This document shows, one piece after another, positions 1,854-39,600 of a stretch of 64,000 bases of DNA. Numbering within the stretch: position 1 is the stretch's first letter; each line of letters starts with the position of its first letter. A program made the translations under genes and the position numbers. Source of the DNA: Acidobacteriota bacterium (GTDB taxonomy: Bacteria > Acidobacteriota > Blastocatellia > UBA7656); NCBI GenBank assembly GCA_038040455.1, contig JBBPIH010000039.1, positions 4,998 to 68,997 of the forward strand, written 5' to 3'. The notes under the pieces are model-generated. The model was not told where the DNA came from. It searched no databases and saw nothing but the letters and a program-made list of their open reading frames with translations.

Positions 1854-1982
<129 letters not shown>

Positions 1983-1993
1983 AGCTCAGGCCT

Positions 1994-11791: not shown

Positions 11792-12001
11792 TTGACCGTC
11801 ATCGTTAATGGAAATCAAACCGTTATTACCGAAGGGTCCGCCATCGGTGAGCTAATCAAGTCACTTGACCTAAACCCGGAACTAGTAGCCGTTGAATTGA
11901 ATAGAAGGATCATCCGCCGCGCCGATTGGGACTCGACAACGATTTCCGAAGGTGACAGAGTAGAAATTGTGCACTTTGTAGGAGGGGGGGAAGCGATGTG
12001 A
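11792..12001 (+). CDS. thiS: sulfur-carrier protein ThiS (with 4-residue extension after the Gly-Gly)
   Basis: The 69-aa protein has a ThiS-like beta-grasp pattern and ends ...VHFVGGGEAM. It has a TTG start with a ggaagg RBS and lies directly upstream of thiG. Confidence 0.55.
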   Translation: MTVIVNGNQTVITEGSAIGELIKSLDLNPELVAVELNRRIIRRADWDSTTISEGDRVEIVHFVGGGEAM

Positions 12002-12067
12002 TGCGTGATGCGTGACCGAAGCCTGCTGCTTTCCGGGTCACGCATCACGGCATTACGCATCACGCCT
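12000..12067 (+). promoter_or_regulatory. imperfect hairpin between thiS and thiG (gtgatgcgtgatgcgtgacc / ggtcacgcatcacggcattacgcatcac)
   Basis: The inverted repeat was read directly from the sequence. No U-tract follows it. Confidence 0.4.
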
Positions 12068-22090: not shown

Positions 22091-22209
22091 ACCTGGGAGC
22101 GCAGGCATCCCTGCCTGCGCGGAGTGCGCGAGAAGCGCTTTAAGAAAGAGAACCCGTTAGCCGAAAGAGGCAGGCAGGCAGGCAGGTAGGGATGCCTGCG
22201 CTCCCAGTC
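22091..22209. repeat. 25-bp near-perfect inverted repeat pair (CTGGGAGCGCAGGCATCCCTGCCTGC ... GCAGGTAGGGATGCCTGCGCTCCCAG) with a (GGCA)4 tract
   Basis: It was read directly from the sequence. It lies in the 370-bp gap between a phosphoesterase gene and the ECF sigma operon. Confidence 0.6.
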
Positions 22210-22222
22210 CTTCAGATTGATA

Positions 22223-22942
22223 TCACCGATCGCTGGTGATTCTTTGAAACTCTATCTCCGCGGGTGCGAAGTTCGCCGCGTCCGCACTCACCAAGAGGTA
22301 GGTTGTCCTTACCCGCAATCCTGTAAGAGCTGTACTTATGTCGTCGCCGTGCAGATGCCCATACACACAAACGTCTGCGCCGTATTCATCAATCAACTCC
22401 GTGAAAGCGGAGGGTTCATGCGTTGCGTTGGTCGGAGGATAGTGCAGCGCAACGATCAACTCATCGAACTCGCTCTTGCGACCGTGGAGGGATCCGAATG
22501 CAGCGCGCAAGCGCGCGACTTCGCGCTCATAAATCCTCGCGTCCTGCTCTTCAAAGTGCGGGTCGTTAGGGCACGTCCACCCACGGGTGCCGACTACGGC
22601 GACGCGATTCACGATGATCGAGCTAGCCTGGAGGATCTTGATCGAGGGGTGGAGCGCGCGGCTCATCTTAGACTTGGACTGCCACCAATAGTCGTGATTG
22701 CCTTTGACCAGCAGCTTGAGCCCCGGCATCTGACCGATGCGTTCAAGGTCCGGCATCGCGTCTTCGAGCCGCATAGCCCAGCTTGTATCGCCGACTATGA
22801 GCACCAGATCTTCGTCGCGCACTGTTCTCTCCCACGCGTCGAATACTTTCAGATCGTGGTCGCGCCAGTGCTCGCCGAAGCGATCCATCGTCTTTCCGGT
22901 GCCGCCCGCGAGGTGAAGGTCGCCGATTGCGAATACTCTCAT
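22223..22942 (-). CDS. calcineurin-like metallophosphoesterase
   Basis: It carries the GDLH, GD..D and GNHD phosphoesterase signature motifs. Confidence 0.65.
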   Translation of the reverse strand: MRVFAIGDLHLAGGTGKTMDRFGEHWRDHDLKVFDAWERTVRDEDLVLIVGDTSWAMRLEDAMPDLERIGQMPGLKLLVKGNHDYWWQSKSKMSRALHPSIKILQASSIIVNRVAVVGTRGWTCPNDPHFEEQDARIYEREVARLRAAFGSLHGRKSEFDELIVALHYPPTNATHEPSAFTELIDEYGADVCVYGHLHGDDISTALTGLRVRTTYLLVSADAANFAPAEIEFQRITSDR

Positions 22943-22954
22943 CGACGAATGATA

Positions 22955-23207
22955 CAGGATCAGAGGTCAGAAGTCAGAAGGCGGAAGGCAGAAGGCAGAA
23001 GACGGAAGGCAGAAGACGGAAGGCAGAAGGCGGAAAGGCAGAGGTGCCAAATCAGAGGTCGGAAGTCCGAGTGGGAAGTCAGAAGCTGTTTGGCCAACGC
23101 ACGAGCGGGCTGAAGCCTGCCTCGTGCGGTCCTGACCGCTGGCCTGACCTCTGATTTCTCACCTCCGCCGGCTGCCTTCTGCGTTCTGCCTTCTGCCTTC
23201 TGATCTC
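22955..23207. repeat. inverted arrays of degenerate heptad repeats (GCAGAAG/GCGGAAG x about 12, then CTTCTGC x about 4) forming a long imperfect palindrome
   Basis: It was read directly from the sequence. The two ORFs the track predicts here (22927..23154 + and 22960..23241 -) translate to KAEGRR-type low complexity and are artefacts of the repeat. Confidence 0.7.
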
Positions 23208-23210
23208 TGG

Positions 23211-24755
23211 CTACATCGGAAGCCGCAGTCGAGCTTCGCACCCGTGTGCGTTTTGCCGGTTCTCGAGTGTCAGAGTCCCCCCGTGCGCCTCTGCGATCTG
23301 GCGGCTCAACACAAGGCCGATTCCCGAGCCGCCGGGTTTGGTAGTGAAGAAGGGAACGAACAGGTTGCTGGTATTTGAGAGGCCGGGCCCTTCGTCTTCG
23401 ACCCAGACTTCAATTCGCCCTAAGACCCTGCGCCATCCGACTCTAACGCGGCCTCCCGTCTCGAGCGAGGCATCGACGGCGTTGCGGACAAGGTTGATCA
23501 ACAGTTGCTCGAGCTGATCGCCGTCCGCGCGGATTGTGATCTCCGGACCGGCAGACAGTTCGATGGCGACTCGAGTTTCCAGTCCTACGACTCGCTTTAC
23601 CAGCGCGCTGATGCTGAGCGGTTGTAGTCTTGGCAGCGGAAGCCGCGCGAGTCTCGAATAAGCTTCCATAAATCGATTGAGCGAAGCAGCTCTTGCGGCG
23701 ATAACTCCCAGACCGCGGCGCATGTCTTCCTTCCAGTCAGCCGGTTGCGTCTCGCGAGCGACCAAGCTTTCAAGGCTGCCGGCAATCGACTTGATTGGAG
23801 CGAGTGAGTTATTGAGCTCGTGGCCGAGCACACGAACCAGCCGCTGCCATGCTTGACGCTCTTCTTCGCGGAGCGCGCGACTGAGATCAGACAGCACGAG
23901 CAACTGGTGCGGCGCGCCCCGCTCGCGGAAGGTGCTGCGATGCACCTCCCACGGCCCGGCGCCGCCAGCAAATGGCCTCTGAAGCGTGCGAGTGCTTTCG
24001 CCGCTCAGGCAATCGGCAAGCCCGAGATCACCGGCGCTTTTTGCCATCAGCCGCTCGGCAGGTTGAGCCAGGAGGCGTTCACCCGCGCGGTTCACCAGCT
24101 TGAGCTTTTGCTCGCTGTCGAATGCGAAGACGGCAACTTCGATTTCGGCCATCACGGTTCTGAGCAGCGCCGTGGCTTCCAACGCCCCAAGCCGCTGCTC
24201 GCGCAGAATCTGCCCGAGGAAATTCACCTCGAGCATCGCTTCTCCTAGAGCATCGTCGCGAGCCGCACCTCGCGCGCGAATCGAGAAGTCGCCTTCGCGC
24301 AGCGCCGCAAGCAGGTTGGAGAGAGTCTGTAGGGGAAACACCACACGCTCGCGCACGGCGTGAGAGAAGCCAAGCCAGAAGCCGATTATAACGACCGTGA
24401 GGGTCCACTGCACTCTTGCCGGTTGTGGCTCACTCCACAACAAGATCAGGGCAATAAGCACCGCTGGAAATCCCGATGCAAGCGCCATCACGAGTATTCG
24501 GCGATCGTGCTTCGCAGTGAAGTAGCTGCGTGAGGTTTGCGGCGGCATTTTTGCGCGTGAAGCCGCCGGCCGACGCAAGGAGTCCGTATCCGTTGTGGTC
24601 TGTCTGGAAGTTTTCAGTGAAAGCGGTTCCAATTGTGCGTCAATACCGGGCGAGGTAGCCGCGCGATCTTCGTCATCAGCTCGCTCATCGGAGGTACCGC
24701 CGGAGACGAGCGGCGACGCGAGCTTCGGGATGGCTCGTGCTTTGAGGCGCTTCAT
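23211..24755 (-). CDS. sensor histidine kinase (TM, HAMP/PAS-like linker, HisKA, HATPase_c)
   Basis: It has an H-box (HELNNSLAPI) and N, G1 and G2 boxes (NLVRNAVDA, DEGPGL, GGSGIGL). The start ATG at 24755 overlaps the regulator stop (ATGA). Confidence 0.75.
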   Translation of the reverse strand: MKRLKARAIPKLASPLVSGGTSDERADDEDRAATSPGIDAQLEPLSLKTSRQTTTDTDSLRRPAASRAKMPPQTSRSYFTAKHDRRILVMALASGFPAVLIALILLWSEPQPARVQWTLTVVIIGFWLGFSHAVRERVVFPLQTLSNLLAALREGDFSIRARGAARDDALGEAMLEVNFLGQILREQRLGALEATALLRTVMAEIEVAVFAFDSEQKLKLVNRAGERLLAQPAERLMAKSAGDLGLADCLSGESTRTLQRPFAGGAGPWEVHRSTFRERGAPHQLLVLSDLSRALREEERQAWQRLVRVLGHELNNSLAPIKSIAGSLESLVARETQPADWKEDMRRGLGVIAARAASLNRFMEAYSRLARLPLPRLQPLSISALVKRVVGLETRVAIELSAGPEITIRADGDQLEQLLINLVRNAVDASLETGGRVRVGWRRVLGRIEVWVEDEGPGLSNTSNLFVPFFTTKPGGSGIGLVLSRQIAEAHGGTLTLENRQNAHGCEARLRLPM

Positions 24756-26122
24756 AACCCGAACCGTTGAAGCCGTCTGTAGAGAGCGCTGCGGCTGAGA
24801 CCGAGCTTCTCCGCCGCGCGGCTTACGTTGCCGTCGCACTGCGCAAGGGTTCTCTGAATCAAGAAGCCTTCGACCTCTTCCAGGCTCATGTCTTCCAACC
24901 GGCGCGAGACCTCGCGCCCGGACTGGAGGCCCAAGTCCCGAGCCTCCAAAGTGGCTCCCAGCGCCATGAGCACGGCACGCTCGACGGCGTGGTCAAGCTC
25001 GCGTACGTTGCCGGGCCACGCGTGTTTCAACAGGGCCTGCATTGCCGCCGGGTGGAAGCCTTCGAGGTTCTTGCGGTAGCGGCGCTGGTGTTGACGAAGG
25101 AAATGCGTTGCCAGCAGCGGAATATCTTCCCGGCGGTCGCGAAGCGCCGGCAAATGTATCTCGACTGTGTTAAGCCGGAAGAGTAAGTCCTGGCGGAAGC
25201 GGCCGGCTGCGACTTCTTCGCCAAGATCGGCGTTCGTTGCTGAGATTATTCTCACGTCCGAGCGTCGCGTCTTTGAAGAGCCCACGCGCTCAAACTCGCC
25301 CGTCTCGAGCACGCGCAGGAGCTTCGGCTGATGCTTTATCGGAAGGTTGGCGATCTCGTCCAAAAACAGCGTGCCGCCCTCAGCCATCTCAAACCGCCCA
25401 ACGCGATCCGCCTTTGCATCGGTGAACGCGCCTTTGACGTGGCCGAACATTTCGCTCTCAAACACGCCCTCGGAAAGTCCACCTACATTGGCGGTGACCA
25501 TCGGCTTTGAAGTCCGGCTGGACATGACGTGAAGCGTCTGAGCGACGACTCCCTTACCGGTGCCGTTCTCGCCGGTAATTAGAACGTTTGCGTCGGAAGC
25601 GCCGACGCGTTCGACTATCTGAAGCACCGGCTGCATGGCTGGAGACTCGGCGATGAGTTTGGGTTTTCCCTCGTCGCGAAGTATGCGGTTCTCGGCCTCT
25701 AACCGCTGGCCCCTTCTTAACGCCTGACCGAGTTCTGCTTGAGTGTGTAGGATGGTCAGCAGTCTCGCGTTATCCCACGGCTTCTGGATAAAGTCGCTCG
25801 CACCGCGGCGCATAGCCTCGACCGCGATGTCCACGCTGCTCCAGGCGGTCATCACAACGACCGGCAGAGTGCTGTCGAGCTTTTGAATCCGCGTGAGCAT
25901 ATCCAGGCCTTCCTGCCCTGACGTCGTGTCACGCGTGTAGTTGAGGTCCATCAAAAGAACGTTGAAGTCCCGCTCCTCGATCGCCTTGATGATATCGCCG
26001 GGCTTCTTGACCGTTTCAATTTGGTATCGTTCGGATTTTAGCAGCAGACGAAGCGCCTCCAGGACGTCCGGCTGATCGTCGGCAATCAACACTCTGGGTG
26101 TGAATGATTCGAGCGCTTTCAT
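24752..26122 (-). CDS. sigma-54-dependent response regulator (REC-AAA+-Fis HTH, NtrC/NtrX family)
   Basis: It has a REC domain (LIADDQ...D), Walker A (GENGTGKG), the GAFTDA sigma-54 interaction motif and a C-terminal HTH. Confidence 0.85.
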
Positions 26123-27199: not shown

Positions 27200-28453
27200 T
27201 CAGTTAAGACGGATTCGATCATTGTTATCCCACTGGGTTGTGTCGGAGAGGATCACTATATCACCCTCCTTAAGGCCATCAATAACCTCGATTGTAGTCA
27301 CGGAACCTTTGCCGAGTTTTACTTGAACGCGGCTCGCGCCTGCGCGATCCGGATCGAGCTTGAAGATTCCGATCGTTGCGTTCTCGGATCCGTGAACCGG
27401 GCGATTGACCCAGAGTATGTTATCAAGCTTCTCCAGCTGTATCGTGCCGTCGACGCTCAAGTCGGGGACAGCACCCTTTGGCAGTTCCCCTTCGAGGGAT
27501 GCATCTACGGTGCGGGTGCCATTCTGGACTGAAGGGTCTATCCGAATTACCCTGCCGGCGATTATTCCGTTGCGCGTGTCAACCGACACCGGCTGGCCGA
27601 GTTGAATATCTTTAGCCTGAGTTTCAGAAATCTTGAGCTCCGCCTTGAGCCGCTTGGGGTTCGCTACTCTCGCGAGCTCCTGGCCGAGGGTAACTTGCTG
27701 CCCGACTTGAACTGCGACTGTCTGTAATTCTCCATCGATTCCCGCGCGGACTATCAGCGCGTCAAGTTGTCGGCGCTTGAGCTGCACTGCGTCTCTGAGC
27801 TGGCGAACTTTTTCATCTTCGGCGGCCAGCCTGGCTTTGGCTTCTGCTCGGCTGCCGGCCAGGCGCTTTCGTTCGAGCGTCACTCGATTGTCCAGGTCTT
27901 CTGCTGCGATTTGAGACAACTGCAACTCGAGCTTCGATTTCAAACCTTGCGTGGCGAGGGAATCGTTCACCTCGTATTGCATCTTGGCCTTCTTGAAATC
28001 AGAACTCACCTGGGCCAGCGACGCCTCTTGATCCAGGATCGTCTTATCCATTTGAACCTTCAACGTCGTGAGGTTGGCCCCGGCGCCGCGAAGTTGCGAC
28101 TCCGCATCGACAAACGCTTGTTGTATTTCCGGATTGGTCAACTCCATTAGCACGGTATCGGCTTTGACCTGCGCGCCAGGCTGGACGAGTCTCTTCTCGA
28201 TTCGGCCAGTGCTGATAGCTGGGACATAGCGAATCTCTTCAGGTACAAGCGTGCCTAATCCGCGAACATTGCGAAGCATCGGGCCTCGGGTGACTGTGCC
28301 TTTCCACAGAGTAGCGTCGTCAACGCTGGGAGCGGCAGGTTTCAAACGCGATACGCCGACGGTTATCAGCGCAACAGCTACGACTGCCGTTAGCGCGTAC
28401 AGGATCCTTCGAACTCGACGCTTTTTGGCTGCAGATTTACGCGGTATATCCAT
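27200..28453 (-). CDS. HlyD/MacA-family periplasmic adaptor (membrane fusion protein)
   Basis: It has an N-terminal TM anchor and a long coiled-coil, lipoyl and beta-barrel pattern typical of membrane fusion proteins. Confidence 0.7.
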   Translation of the reverse strand: MDIPRKSAAKKRRVRRILYALTAVVAVALITVGVSRLKPAAPSVDDATLWKGTVTRGPMLRNVRGLGTLVPEEIRYVPAISTGRIEKRLVQPGAQVKADTVLMELTNPEIQQAFVDAESQLRGAGANLTTLKVQMDKTILDQEASLAQVSSDFKKAKMQYEVNDSLATQGLKSKLELQLSQIAAEDLDNRVTLERKRLAGSRAEAKARLAAEDEKVRQLRDAVQLKRRQLDALIVRAGIDGELQTVAVQVGQQVTLGQELARVANPKRLKAELKISETQAKDIQLGQPVSVDTRNGIIAGRVIRIDPSVQNGTRTVDASLEGELPKGAVPDLSVDGTIQLEKLDNILWVNRPVHGSENATIGIFKLDPDRAGASRVQVKLGKGSVTTIEVIDGLKEGDIVILSDTTQWDNNDRIRLN

Positions 28454-28602
28454 GCTTCCTCCAACACCTTCTAAGGAAGTTCCGTGCCATCGGTGCGGCC
28501 CCCTTAACTCTTTCCGTAATTCATCTTAACACAACTGCGACGGTCACTGTAAGCGACCCGGCTTTTCGCTTCTGGGAACCCCGTGTTCAGAAGCGGACAC
28601 AG

Positions 28603-39446: not shown

Positions 39447-39600
<154 letters not shown>

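What the first reader, a model, noticed from the sequence alone, without database searches (positions are those of the whole stretch)
22955..23207. Long imperfect palindrome made of inverted heptad-repeat arrays (GCAGAAG)n ... (CTTCTGC)n between a histidine-kinase gene and a phosphoesterase gene
About 12 degenerate heptads (GCAGAAG, GCGGAAG, ACGGAAG) are followed, after a 50-bp centre, by the reverse-complement heptads. Two overlapping ORFs the track predicts here, which encode KAEGRR-type repeats, are artefacts of this repeat. It is too short-period and spacer-free to be a CRISPR array. It could form a large cruciform or hairpin, be a slipped-strand contingency locus, or carry reiterated binding sites for a regulator, possibly the adjacent sigma-54 regulator/HK pair.
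Basis: seen in the sequence. Interest (0 to 1): 0.5.

Follow-up and report, generated by a model that had tools for sequence, protein, structure and literature searches.

The report
Heptamer-repeat palindrome filling a gene gap
The gap between a sensor-kinase gene and a phosphoesterase gene of this soil acidobacterium is filled by a run of 7-base repeats followed by its mirror-image copy. It is one of about 300 such fast-changing palindromes in the genome, a repeat type already described in other bacteria, and not a regulatory device for these two genes.

Summary
Positions 22961-23085 hold 12 clean and 6 degenerate CAGAAGG-type heptads. After a 58-nt centre, 23144-23209 hold about 9 reverse-complement units. 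Together they fill the whole 268-nt spacer between the kinase stop codon and the phosphoesterase ATG.

It folds far better than shuffled sequence (RNA z -7.1, DNA z -8.0). The two ORFs inside it are artefacts.

It is not locus-specific. The 7.1-Mb genome (class Blastocatellia) has 1210 period-7 arrays and roughly 310-340 inverted heptad pairs in about 57 heptad classes. Most lie in co-directional spacers and start a median of 5 nt after a stop codon.

At the orthologous site, congeners carry:
- the same palindrome with 2 to 7 units per arm (against 9-18 here);
- only one arm;
- other heptad classes;
- or nothing.

Other genera have a 13-59-nt spacer.

I found no sigma-54 element, terminator, target duplication, link to Y1 transposases, or sense-strand RNA signal.

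The best reading is an in-place-growing microsatellite palindrome of the kind described in Xanthomonas (Rehm 2015), with function unproven. This scan has reported the same phenomenon on other DNA of this genome and in at least 19 genomes.

The parts
22223..22942 (-). Metallophosphoesterase gene, downstream neighbour; its ATG is at 22940-22942
   Evidence: Pfam Metallophos, E 1.2e-15. Orthologues found in 32 of 41 related genomes.
22949..22977 (-). Sigma-70-type promoter-like site CTGACT-17-TATCAT. The -10-like hexamer (22949-22954) ends 6 nt before the ATG. The -35-like hexamer (22972-22977) lies inside the outermost heptads.
   Evidence: It is the only promoter-like match in 22700-23400, against a shuffle mean of 0.0. 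CCTGTATC[AG]T sits 6-9 nt before the ATG in 9 of 14 congeners. It is not a dispersed motif: 9 genome copies against about 14 expected. Function is inferred, not shown.
22961..23045 (+). Left arm, the 3' arm on the transcribed strand. It has 12 clean heptads of CAGARGK/CGGAAGG type, including a recent 14-nt double-unit duplication at 22996-23023.
   Evidence: The ACGGAAG variant has no counterpart in the other arm (seen in sequence).
23046..23085 (+). Degenerate inner heptads of the left arm. They pair with 23144-23169.
   Evidence: Inverted pair I10, 24 nt, 88% complementary.
23086..23143 (.). Unique 58-nt centre. It holds a small GC-rich hairpin (stem 23098-23105 with 23121-23128) and a 12-nt direct duplication (23126-23149).
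   Evidence: No other copy in the genome and none in 40 relatives.
23144..23209 (+). Right arm, the 5' arm on the transcribed strand. It has about 9.4 CTGNNYT units, five of them clean at 23172-23206, and ends 1 nt from the kinase stop codon.
23211..24839 (-). Histidine kinase gene, upstream neighbour; its TAG stop is at 23211-23213
   Evidence: Pfam HATPase_c, E 4.5e-18. Kinase-phosphoesterase synteny is kept in 14 related genomes.
24752..26122 (-). Sigma-54-dependent response regulator. Context only; not linked to the repeat.
   Evidence: Pfam Response_reg, Sigma54_activat and HTH_8.

Best explanation
The feature is one member of a genome-wide class of non-coding palindromes whose two arms are inverted heptamer microsatellites. 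A CAGAGGT...GACCTCT palindrome was already in this spacer in an ancestor within the genus.

It has since grown and changed in place by slipped-strand mispairing in steps of 7, 14 and 21 nt. New variants (GCAGAAG, GCGGAAG, ACGGAAG) arose by point mutation and spread inside the array. The two arms started as mirror copies and now drift apart, at 12-18 against 5-9 units.

The element expands until it meets sequence under selection: the kinase stop codon on one side and a conserved -10-like motif just before the phosphoesterase ATG on the other. Its centre is prone to take up foreign DNA.

It is not a device of the kinase/regulator pair. Any effect on the neighbours is a by-product, such as a strong hairpin in a read-through transcript, cruciform-prone DNA, or outermost heptads that supply a -35-like hexamer.

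Shown: the anatomy, the genome-wide class, the turnover between species, and the negative tests. Inferred: slippage as the growth mechanism, mirror copying between arms, and neutrality.
For: Genome-wide class:
- 1210 of 4018 tandem-repeat arrays have period 7, against 161 with period 6 and 272 with period 8.
- There are 313-344 inverted pairs, depending on how they are counted, in about 57 heptad classes.
- 232 of 313 lie outside my gene calls, and they fill a median of 83% of their spacer.
- In co-directional spacers they start a median of 5 nt after the stop and end a median of 18.5 nt before the next start. This locus shows 1 nt and 18 nt.

Growth in place:
- Periods 14 and 21 fit better than period 7 (88% and 85% against 69%).
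- An identical 14-nt double unit occurs in one arm only.
- At the orthologous site the same palindrome has 7/7 units in G003, 5/3 in G004 and 2/2 in G006. G012, G005 and G013 keep only the arm next to the phosphoesterase gene.

No conservation as a site:
- G010, G011 and G008 hold other heptad classes at the same place.
- G007 and G014 hold none, and four other genera have 13-59-nt spacers.

Centre as insertion point: across orthologues it is 7-8 nt, two unrelated sequences of about 60 and 110 nt, or a 0.9-kb insertion with a small ORF and a frameshifted PIN gene.

No RNA-strand signal: among 228 co-directional loci the sense RNA is more stable in 109 and the antisense in 117 (Wilcoxon p 0.20). 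G-U pairs number 624 sense against 746 antisense.

Literature:
- Heptanucleotide repeats are the most abundant long simple-sequence repeats in many bacteria, and polymerase slippage was proposed as the cause (Mrazek 2007, as summarised in PMC4679880).
- 70-75 convergent inverted GGGAATC pairs were reported in Xanthomonas (PMC4692102).
Against: - Pure local slippage does not explain why the same few heptad classes recur at hundreds of unrelated loci and across genera. CAGARGK triplets occur in 14 of 14 genomes of the genus, with 1 to 405 hits, and patchily beyond it.
- It does not explain why different classes occupy the same orthologous spacer in different species.
- It does not explain why 31 of 179 centres fall into 7 families with conserved cores, which points to copying between loci.
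- It does not explain the polarity rule. Each class occurs in one arrangement only (271 of 278 loci), and the G-richer arm is 5' on both strands in 261 of 307 loci.
- Enrichment in co-directional spacers (230 observed against 176 expected by spacer length, p 8e-11) hints at some tie to transcription units.
- My gene calls are a home-made codon-score caller.
- No reads or transcripts could be examined.
Confidence: 0.6

Rival explanations
1. The heptad palindromes are non-autonomous elements that are copied between loci, like REPINs or MITEs but with heptad-array arms. An unidentified trans-acting enzyme or template switching between arrays would do the copying. This locus would be an old insertion that later diversified.
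For: - The same heptad classes occur at many loci and in many genomes.
- Different classes sit at one orthologous site.
- Seven families, 31 of 179 loci, have conserved unique cores tied to one heptad class each.
- Four or five near-identical nested composites share one design: CAGARGK outer arms, ATTTTCC/ATTTGTC inner arms, and a 40-nt core found in either orientation, at 92-97% identity.
- Each class has a single arrangement.
Against: - No target-site duplication above shuffled flanks.
- None of 17 Y1-transposase matches in the genome is flanked by heptad arrays.
- 148 of 179 centres are unique in the genome.
- The centre of this locus has no copy in the genome or in 40 relatives.
- At this site the changes between four species are changes of copy number in a resident palindrome.
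Confidence: 0.15
2. The palindrome works at the RNA level, as REP/BIME elements do in enterobacteria. A long stem-loop directly after the kinase stop codon would protect the upstream mRNA from 3' exonucleases, or would stop or weaken read-through into the phosphoesterase gene, which then uses its own promoter.
For: - Very stable fold of the transcribed strand.
- The class hugs stop codons and is enriched between co-directional genes.
- A conserved promoter-like site lies just downstream of the hairpin.
- Rehm et al. report that most Xanthomonas repeats are transcribed.
Against: - No U-tract and no terminator-like match.
- No sense-over-antisense advantage in stability or G-U pairing across 228 loci. 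Here the antisense RNA folds better, -131.2 against -120.5 kcal/mol over the TRF-delimited element.
- About 50 nt of one arm are unpaired in the best fold.
- Congeners and other genera with the same gene pair do without it.
- The class is under-represented in convergent spacers, where 3'-end hairpins are expected (25 observed against 37-42 expected).
Confidence: 0.12
3. It is a contingency (phase-variable) locus. Slippage in the array next to the phosphoesterase gene would alter its promoter and switch expression.
For: - The -35-like CTGACT lies in the heptads, 17 nt from a conserved -10-like TATCAT.
- The same CTGACT-17/18-TATCAT arrangement is seen in G003, G012 and G005.
- Copy number varies between species.
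Against: - Whole-unit changes leave a CTGACY hexamer at the same distance from the -10, so spacing does not change (inference).
- In G004 and G006 the heptads lie about 30 nt further upstream, and in G010 a different heptad adjoins the motif.
- About 300 loci with unrelated neighbours share the design.
- A -10-like hexamer at this distance from start codons is only weakly enriched genome-wide.
Confidence: 0.06
4. The heptads are reiterated binding sites (an upstream activating sequence) for the adjacent sigma-54 activator.
For: Only the proximity to the regulator gene and the dyad symmetry of the element.
Against: - No -24/-12 promoter in the spacer with up to 2 mismatches.
- The element lies at the 3' end of the regulator/kinase operon.
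- It is absent or different in genomes that keep the regulator-kinase-phosphoesterase order.
- The same heptads occur at many unrelated loci.
- A better sigma-54-like site lies at 28474-28489 (-), upstream of the operon's first gene.
Confidence: 0.02

Closest known systems
Convergent inverted pairs of heptameric simple-sequence repeats (GGGAATC) in Xanthomonas campestris and X. axonopodis; related GGGGA(C/T)T arrays in Nostoc (Rehm et al. 2015, PMC4692102)
   Same: Both have tandem 7-nt units, mostly intergenic, with a second array of the complementary unit close by on the other strand in convergent orientation, so the G-richer arm is 5' on both strands. Both have dozens to hundreds of loci per genome, stem-loop potential and unknown function (one search compared).
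   Different: Here there are about 57 heptad classes rather than one. This class (GCAGAAG) has no G-tracts, so it cannot form a G-quadruplex. Elements are often nested and carry long centres. The host is a different phylum (Acidobacteriota, class Blastocatellia).
Long simple-sequence repeats of 5-11 nt in prokaryotes (Mrazek et al. 2007, as summarised in PMC4679880) and the STRR heptanucleotide repeats of heterocystous cyanobacteria (Calothrix, cited in PMC4692102)
   Same: Period 7 dominates over periods 6 and 8, growth by polymerase slippage was proposed, and the arrays are intergenic. One class here (ATTGGTC) appears to be a rotation of the cyanobacterial unit TTGGTCA; that unit is from my own knowledge and was not checked here.
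   Different: Those reports mostly concern solo direct arrays. Here more than half of the arrays (680 of 1210) are in inverted pairs.
REP / BIME / REPIN elements with RAYT (Y1) transposases
   Same: Both are extragenic palindromes in co-directional spacers close to stop codons. Both have hundreds of copies, are lineage-specific and have hairpin potential.
   Different: The arms here are variable-length microsatellites, not a fixed 20-40-nt palindrome. There is no GTAG-type conserved head. No Y1 transposase gene is flanked by them. Most centres are unique.
TAACTGA heptamer direct repeats of marine Beggiatoaceae, cyanobacteria and Bacteroidetes (MacGregor 2015, PMC4679880)
   Same: Both are intergenic heptamer arrays with a patchy phylogenetic spread and placement next to start codons.
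   Different: Those are direct repeats of 2-6 copies just upstream of start codons, and only one indirect repeat was found. Here inverted pairs hug stop codons.

Membership tests
Inverted heptameric SSR pairs (Xanthomonas type, Rehm 2015) | Head-to-tail repeats of a 7-nt unit, several copies | tested here: met
   TRF finds period 7 with 18 copies at 22960-23085 and 4.4 copies at 23172-23202.
Inverted heptameric SSR pairs (Xanthomonas type, Rehm 2015) | A second array of the complementary unit nearby in convergent orientation | tested here: met
   Arms 22961-23026 and 23144-23209 are 77% complementary. The G-richer arm is 5' on both strands, as in 261 of 307 loci.
Inverted heptameric SSR pairs (Xanthomonas type, Rehm 2015) | Intergenic and many loci per genome | tested here: met
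   It fills the spacer between two Pfam-supported genes. The genome has 313-344 loci.
Inverted heptameric SSR pairs (Xanthomonas type, Rehm 2015) | G-tracts able to form a G-quadruplex (GGGNATC subtype) | tested here: not met
   No run of three G in the clean units. It belongs to the broader kind, not to the quadruplex subtype.
REP / REPIN | Repeats flank, or are associated with, a RAYT (Y1 transposase) gene | tested here: not met
   There are 17 Y1_Tnp matches in the genome. None has heptad palindromes within 1.2 kb above background.
REP / REPIN | Conserved short palindromic unit shared by all copies | tested here: not met
   Only the heptad word is shared. The core 23037-23170 matches nothing else in the genome.
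MITE | Terminal inverted repeats plus a target-site duplication, with a conserved internal sequence in many copies | tested here: not met
   The distribution of flanking direct repeats equals that of shuffled flanks at 107 loci. The centre is unique.
CRISPR array | Direct repeats of 23-50 nt separated by unique spacers of similar length | tested here: not met
   Period 7 with no spacers. No Rfam match in the region.
Intrinsic (Rho-independent) terminator | GC-rich stem-loop followed by a U-tract | tested here: not met
   No terminator-like site in 22700-23400 on either strand.
Sigma-54 promoter or activator site | A -24/-12 element (TGGCAC-N5-TTGCW) downstream of the putative binding sites | tested here: not met
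   No match in 22900-23260 with up to 2 mismatches.
Phase-variable contingency SSR | A change of unit number alters promoter spacing or reading frame | tested here: inconclusive
   The array is non-coding. The -35-like hexamer is part of the repeat, so spacing is kept. This is inference only.
Phase-variable contingency SSR | Length heterogeneity within one population | not testable with these tools

The most novel reading that the evidence does not exclude
The polarity rule may be the footprint of how these palindromes are born. The rule is that each heptad class occurs in one arrangement only, almost always with the G-richer arm 5' on both strands. A G/T-rich nascent strand ending in a solo heptamer array would fold back on itself and prime synthesis of its own complement. 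This turns a solo microsatellite into a palindrome, whose centre then becomes a hotspot for capturing foreign DNA and other palindromes. That would be a general route, needing no transposase, by which bacterial intergenic DNA is created. It could be tested on the orthologous series found here.
Probability: 0.15. Interest if true: 0.55.

Novelty: new member of a known kind. Interest (0 to 1): 0.3.

Why it matters
For annotation:
- These palindromes create false ORFs. Here there are two, and they extend a shadow ORF enough to displace the true phosphoesterase gene in a length-based gene call.
- They can be mistaken for regulatory sites of whichever gene lies next to them.

For biology:
- Heptamer repeats have been known for decades without a known function.
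- The series of orthologous spacers found here covers an empty site, 2/2, 5/3 and 7/7 units, 9-18 units per arm here, one arm only, other heptad classes, and a toxin-antitoxin insertion in the centre.
- That makes it a compact natural experiment on how such DNA arises and turns over.

Tried and rejected
- **Gene-direction bias.** A striking 'orientation bias relative to gene direction' turned out to be trivial. A palindrome reads the same on both strands. What remains is that each class has one arrangement.
- **Sigma-54 element.** None in the spacer.
- **Terminator.** None.
- **Rfam.** Only a tRNA in the window.
- **RNA-strand test by folding both strands of 228 loci.** No asymmetry.
- **Target-site duplications.** None, but only 107 loci passed my boundary filter.
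- **RAYT association.** None.
- **Source of the unique centre.** No copy in the genome or in 40 relatives. Only the heptad-like parts match.
- **Genome-wide leaderless-promoter signal.** A TANNNT hexamer 6 nt before start codons is only about 1.3-fold above other in-frame positions. The leaderless reading of the phosphoesterase gene therefore rests on local conservation alone.
- **Length-based gene calling.** It failed at this locus and was replaced by a codon-score caller.
- **Literature search for a description in Blastocatellia.** Nothing found.

Full report
**1. What is there**

The 268 nt between the TAG stop of a histidine-kinase gene (23211-24839, minus strand) and the ATG of a metallophosphoesterase gene (22223-22942, minus strand) are almost wholly one imperfect palindrome.

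- On the plus strand, 12 clean heptads (CAGAGGT, CAGAAGT, CAGAAGG, CGGAAGG, CAGAAGA and similar) run from 22961 to 23045.
- Six degenerate heptads follow, to 23085.
- A 58-nt centre (23086-23143) holds a small GC-rich hairpin.
- About 9.4 units of the complement (CTGCCTT, CTGCGTT, CTGACCT and similar) run from 23144 to 23209, 1 nt from the stop codon.

Tandem Repeats Finder, the inverted-repeat search and folding all confirm this. As RNA of the transcribed strand the fold is -129.5 kcal/mol (z -7.1). As DNA it is -74.5 kcal/mol (z -8.0).

The arms are unequal. In the best fold about 50 nt of the longer arm bulge out.

Periods 14 and 21 fit the long arm better than period 7. An identical 14-nt double unit at 22996-23023 has no partner in the other arm. 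This is what recent slippage in one arm would leave.

The two ORFs in the repeat encode QKAEGRR-type low-complexity strings and have no Pfam match.

**2. It is one of hundreds**

The window lies in a 7.14-Mb draft genome of 122 contigs and 56% G+C. The nearest named records are Blastocatellia (Acidobacteriota) metagenome-assembled genomes.

- Of 4018 tandem-repeat arrays, 1210 have period 7, against 161 with period 6 and 272 with period 8.
- 680 of the period-7 arrays form inverted pairs. That gives about 313-344 loci, depending on the counting, in about 57 heptad classes.
- The window itself holds three more, at 1854-1983, 11998-12065 and 39447-39590.

I used a home-made codon-score gene caller. 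It gets this locus right, whereas a length-based caller was fooled by the repeat. With it:

- 232 of 313 loci lie outside genes, and they fill a median of 83% of their spacer.
- 230 loci lie between co-directional genes, 25 between convergent genes and 24 between divergent genes. The expectation by spacer length is 176, 42 and 62 (p 8e-11).
- In co-directional spacers they begin a median of 5 nt after the stop codon and end a median of 18.5 nt before the next start.

This locus is typical on every count.

**3. Comparison at the orthologous site**

The phosphoesterase gene was found in 32 of 41 related genomes. The kinase lies directly upstream in 14 of them. The spacers fall into these groups:

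- G003: seven CAGAGGT/CAGAAGT units, an unrelated centre of about 110 nt, then seven complementary units.
- G004: 5 and 3 units around an 8-nt loop.
- G006: 2 and 2 units around a 7-nt loop.
- G012, G005 and G013: only the arm next to the phosphoesterase gene.
- G012 and G005: in addition, a 0.8-0.9-kb insertion with a small ORF. In G012 it also carries a frameshifted PIN-domain gene.
- G001: remains of the same small module in the spacer, with no heptads next to the phosphoesterase gene.
- G010, G011 and G008: palindromes of other heptads at the same place (AGTCCGT; GGTTTCT/GGTTCAG; GGGGTTG).
- G007 and G014: none.
- Four other genera of the family: spacers of 13-59 nt without repeats.

So a CAGAGGT palindrome is old within part of the genus. 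Its copy number changes freely. The GCAGAAG, GCGGAAG and ACGGAAG variants are specific to this genome. The centre is where new DNA enters. Nothing in the repeat is conserved wherever the gene pair is conserved.

What fails is the locus-specific interpretation.

**4. What is conserved**

Only CCTGTATC[AG]T, 6-9 nt before the ATG, is conserved, in 9 of 14 congeners. It is not a dispersed motif.

The promoter scan finds CTGACT-17-TATCAT on the minus strand (22977 to 22949). It is the only match in 700 nt, and shuffles give none.

- The -10-like hexamer ends 6 nt before the ATG, so the mRNA could be leaderless. There is no Shine-Dalgarno sequence.
- The -35-like hexamer is part of the outermost heptads.
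- Because the array has a 7-nt register, adding or removing whole units upstream keeps a CTGACY hexamer at the same distance. A spacing-based switch is therefore unlikely (inference).
- Genome-wide support for leaderless promoters is weak.

**5. Tests of the proposed functions**

- Sigma-54: no -24/-12 element in the spacer with up to 2 mismatches. A one-mismatch site lies instead at 28474-28489 (-), 21 nt upstream of the HlyD-family gene that heads the operon.
- Terminator: none.
- RNA-level selection: a hairpin kept for the mRNA should be more stable, and richer in G-U pairs, on the sense strand than on the antisense strand. Across 228 co-directional loci it is not. The count is 109 against 117 (p 0.20), with 624 against 746 G-U pairs. 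Here the antisense strand folds better.
- Mobile element:
  - No target-site duplications.
  - No link to the 17 Y1-transposase matches.
  - 148 of 179 centres are unique.
  - The centre of this locus has no copy in the genome or in 40 relatives.

**6. What the simple slippage picture leaves open**

- The same classes recur at many loci and across genera. CAGARGK triplets occur in 14 of 14 congeners with 1 to 405 hits, in one other genus of the family with 144, and in a few genomes of other families. The reversed control pattern gives about 0.
- 100-kb samples of eight relatives show 0-8 inverted pairs each.
- Seven families, 31 loci, share conserved cores. Among them are four or five nested composites with CAGARGK outer arms, ATTTTCC/ATTTGTC inner arms and a 40-nt core in either orientation. 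Some copying between loci therefore occurs.
- Each class occurs in one arrangement only (271 of 278 loci). The G-richer arm is 5' on both strands in 261 of 307 loci, and in 15 classes against 3. Rehm et al. describe the same convergent arrangement for Xanthomonas.
- Hairpin stability cannot explain this polarity. Fold-back priming by a G/T-rich nascent strand could, but that is my inference and is untested.
- In co-directional spacers the arm nearer the next gene is longer in 116 loci and shorter in 64, as it is here. This is unexplained.

**7. Comparison with what is known**

- The closest description is the convergent inverted GGGAATC heptamer pairs of Xanthomonas, with 70-75 pairs per genome and unknown function (PMC4692102).
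- That sits within the general excess of heptanucleotide simple-sequence repeats in bacteria (Mrazek 2007, as summarised in PMC4679880).
- This element meets the defining features of that kind, except for the G-quadruplex subtype.
- It fails the tested features of REP/REPIN, MITE, CRISPR, intrinsic terminator and sigma-54 site.
- I found no paper describing it in Blastocatellia.
- Earlier notes of this scan report the same phenomenon on other pieces of this genome and in at least 19 genomes. I checked their main claims here myself.

**8. Verdict**

The structure is real and well above chance, and it was correctly seen. It is a new member of a known but unexplained repeat kind, not a regulatory element of the kinase/regulator pair. 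Interest is modest. Its main value is the orthologous series and the negative tests.

Noticed in passing
window 1854-1983, 11998-12065, 39447-39590: There are three more inverted heptad palindromes of other classes: CATTTGT/CATTTTC, GTGATGC, and CCATTTT nested inside GGAGTGGG 8-mers. The centre of 1854-1983 is homologous, in reverse orientation, to the centre of a nested element on contig C49 near 272,900.
   Followed up: partly
window 28474-28489 (-): TGGCACGGAACTTCCT is one mismatch from the sigma-54 -24/-12 consensus. It lies 21 nt upstream of the HlyD-family membrane-fusion gene 27200-28453 (-), which heads the operon containing the ABC ATPase, the sigma-54 activator and the kinase. The operon may therefore be sigma-54-dependent and autoregulated.
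   Followed up: partly
L002:560-1500 (G012); also L025 (G005) and L009/L031 (G001): In three congeners a small module is inserted in the same spacer. It has an antitoxin-like ORF of about 72 aa, followed in G012 by a PIN-domain gene split by a frameshift; the gene content in G005 and G001 was not checked beyond the small ORF. In G012 and G005 it sits next to a surviving half array of heptads, so the palindrome centre looks like an insertion hotspot.
   Followed up: partly
genome contigs C114:10133-10475, C31:238860-239190, C31:373490-373850, C46:62530-62870: These are near-identical (92-97%) nested composites: CAGARGK outer arms, ATTTTCC/ATTTGTC inner arms and a 40-nt unique core found in both orientations. 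They are evidence that some heptad palindromes are copied between loci as units.
   Followed up: partly
genome-wide (co-directional spacers): The arm nearer the downstream gene has more units than the arm next to the stop codon in 116 loci, and fewer in 64 (53 equal). This locus follows the trend. I have no explanation; replication direction was not examined.
   Followed up: no
window 22168-22190: An (AGGC) tetranucleotide repeat of 5.8 copies lies in the 373-nt, locally low-GC spacer between the phosphoesterase stop and the ECF sigma-factor gene.
   Followed up: no
window 22217-23113 (+): A 298-aa shadow ORF on the opposite strand of the phosphoesterase gene is lengthened by the repeat. It outcompetes the true 239-aa gene in a length-based gene call. 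This is an annotation hazard of these repeats.
   Followed up: yes
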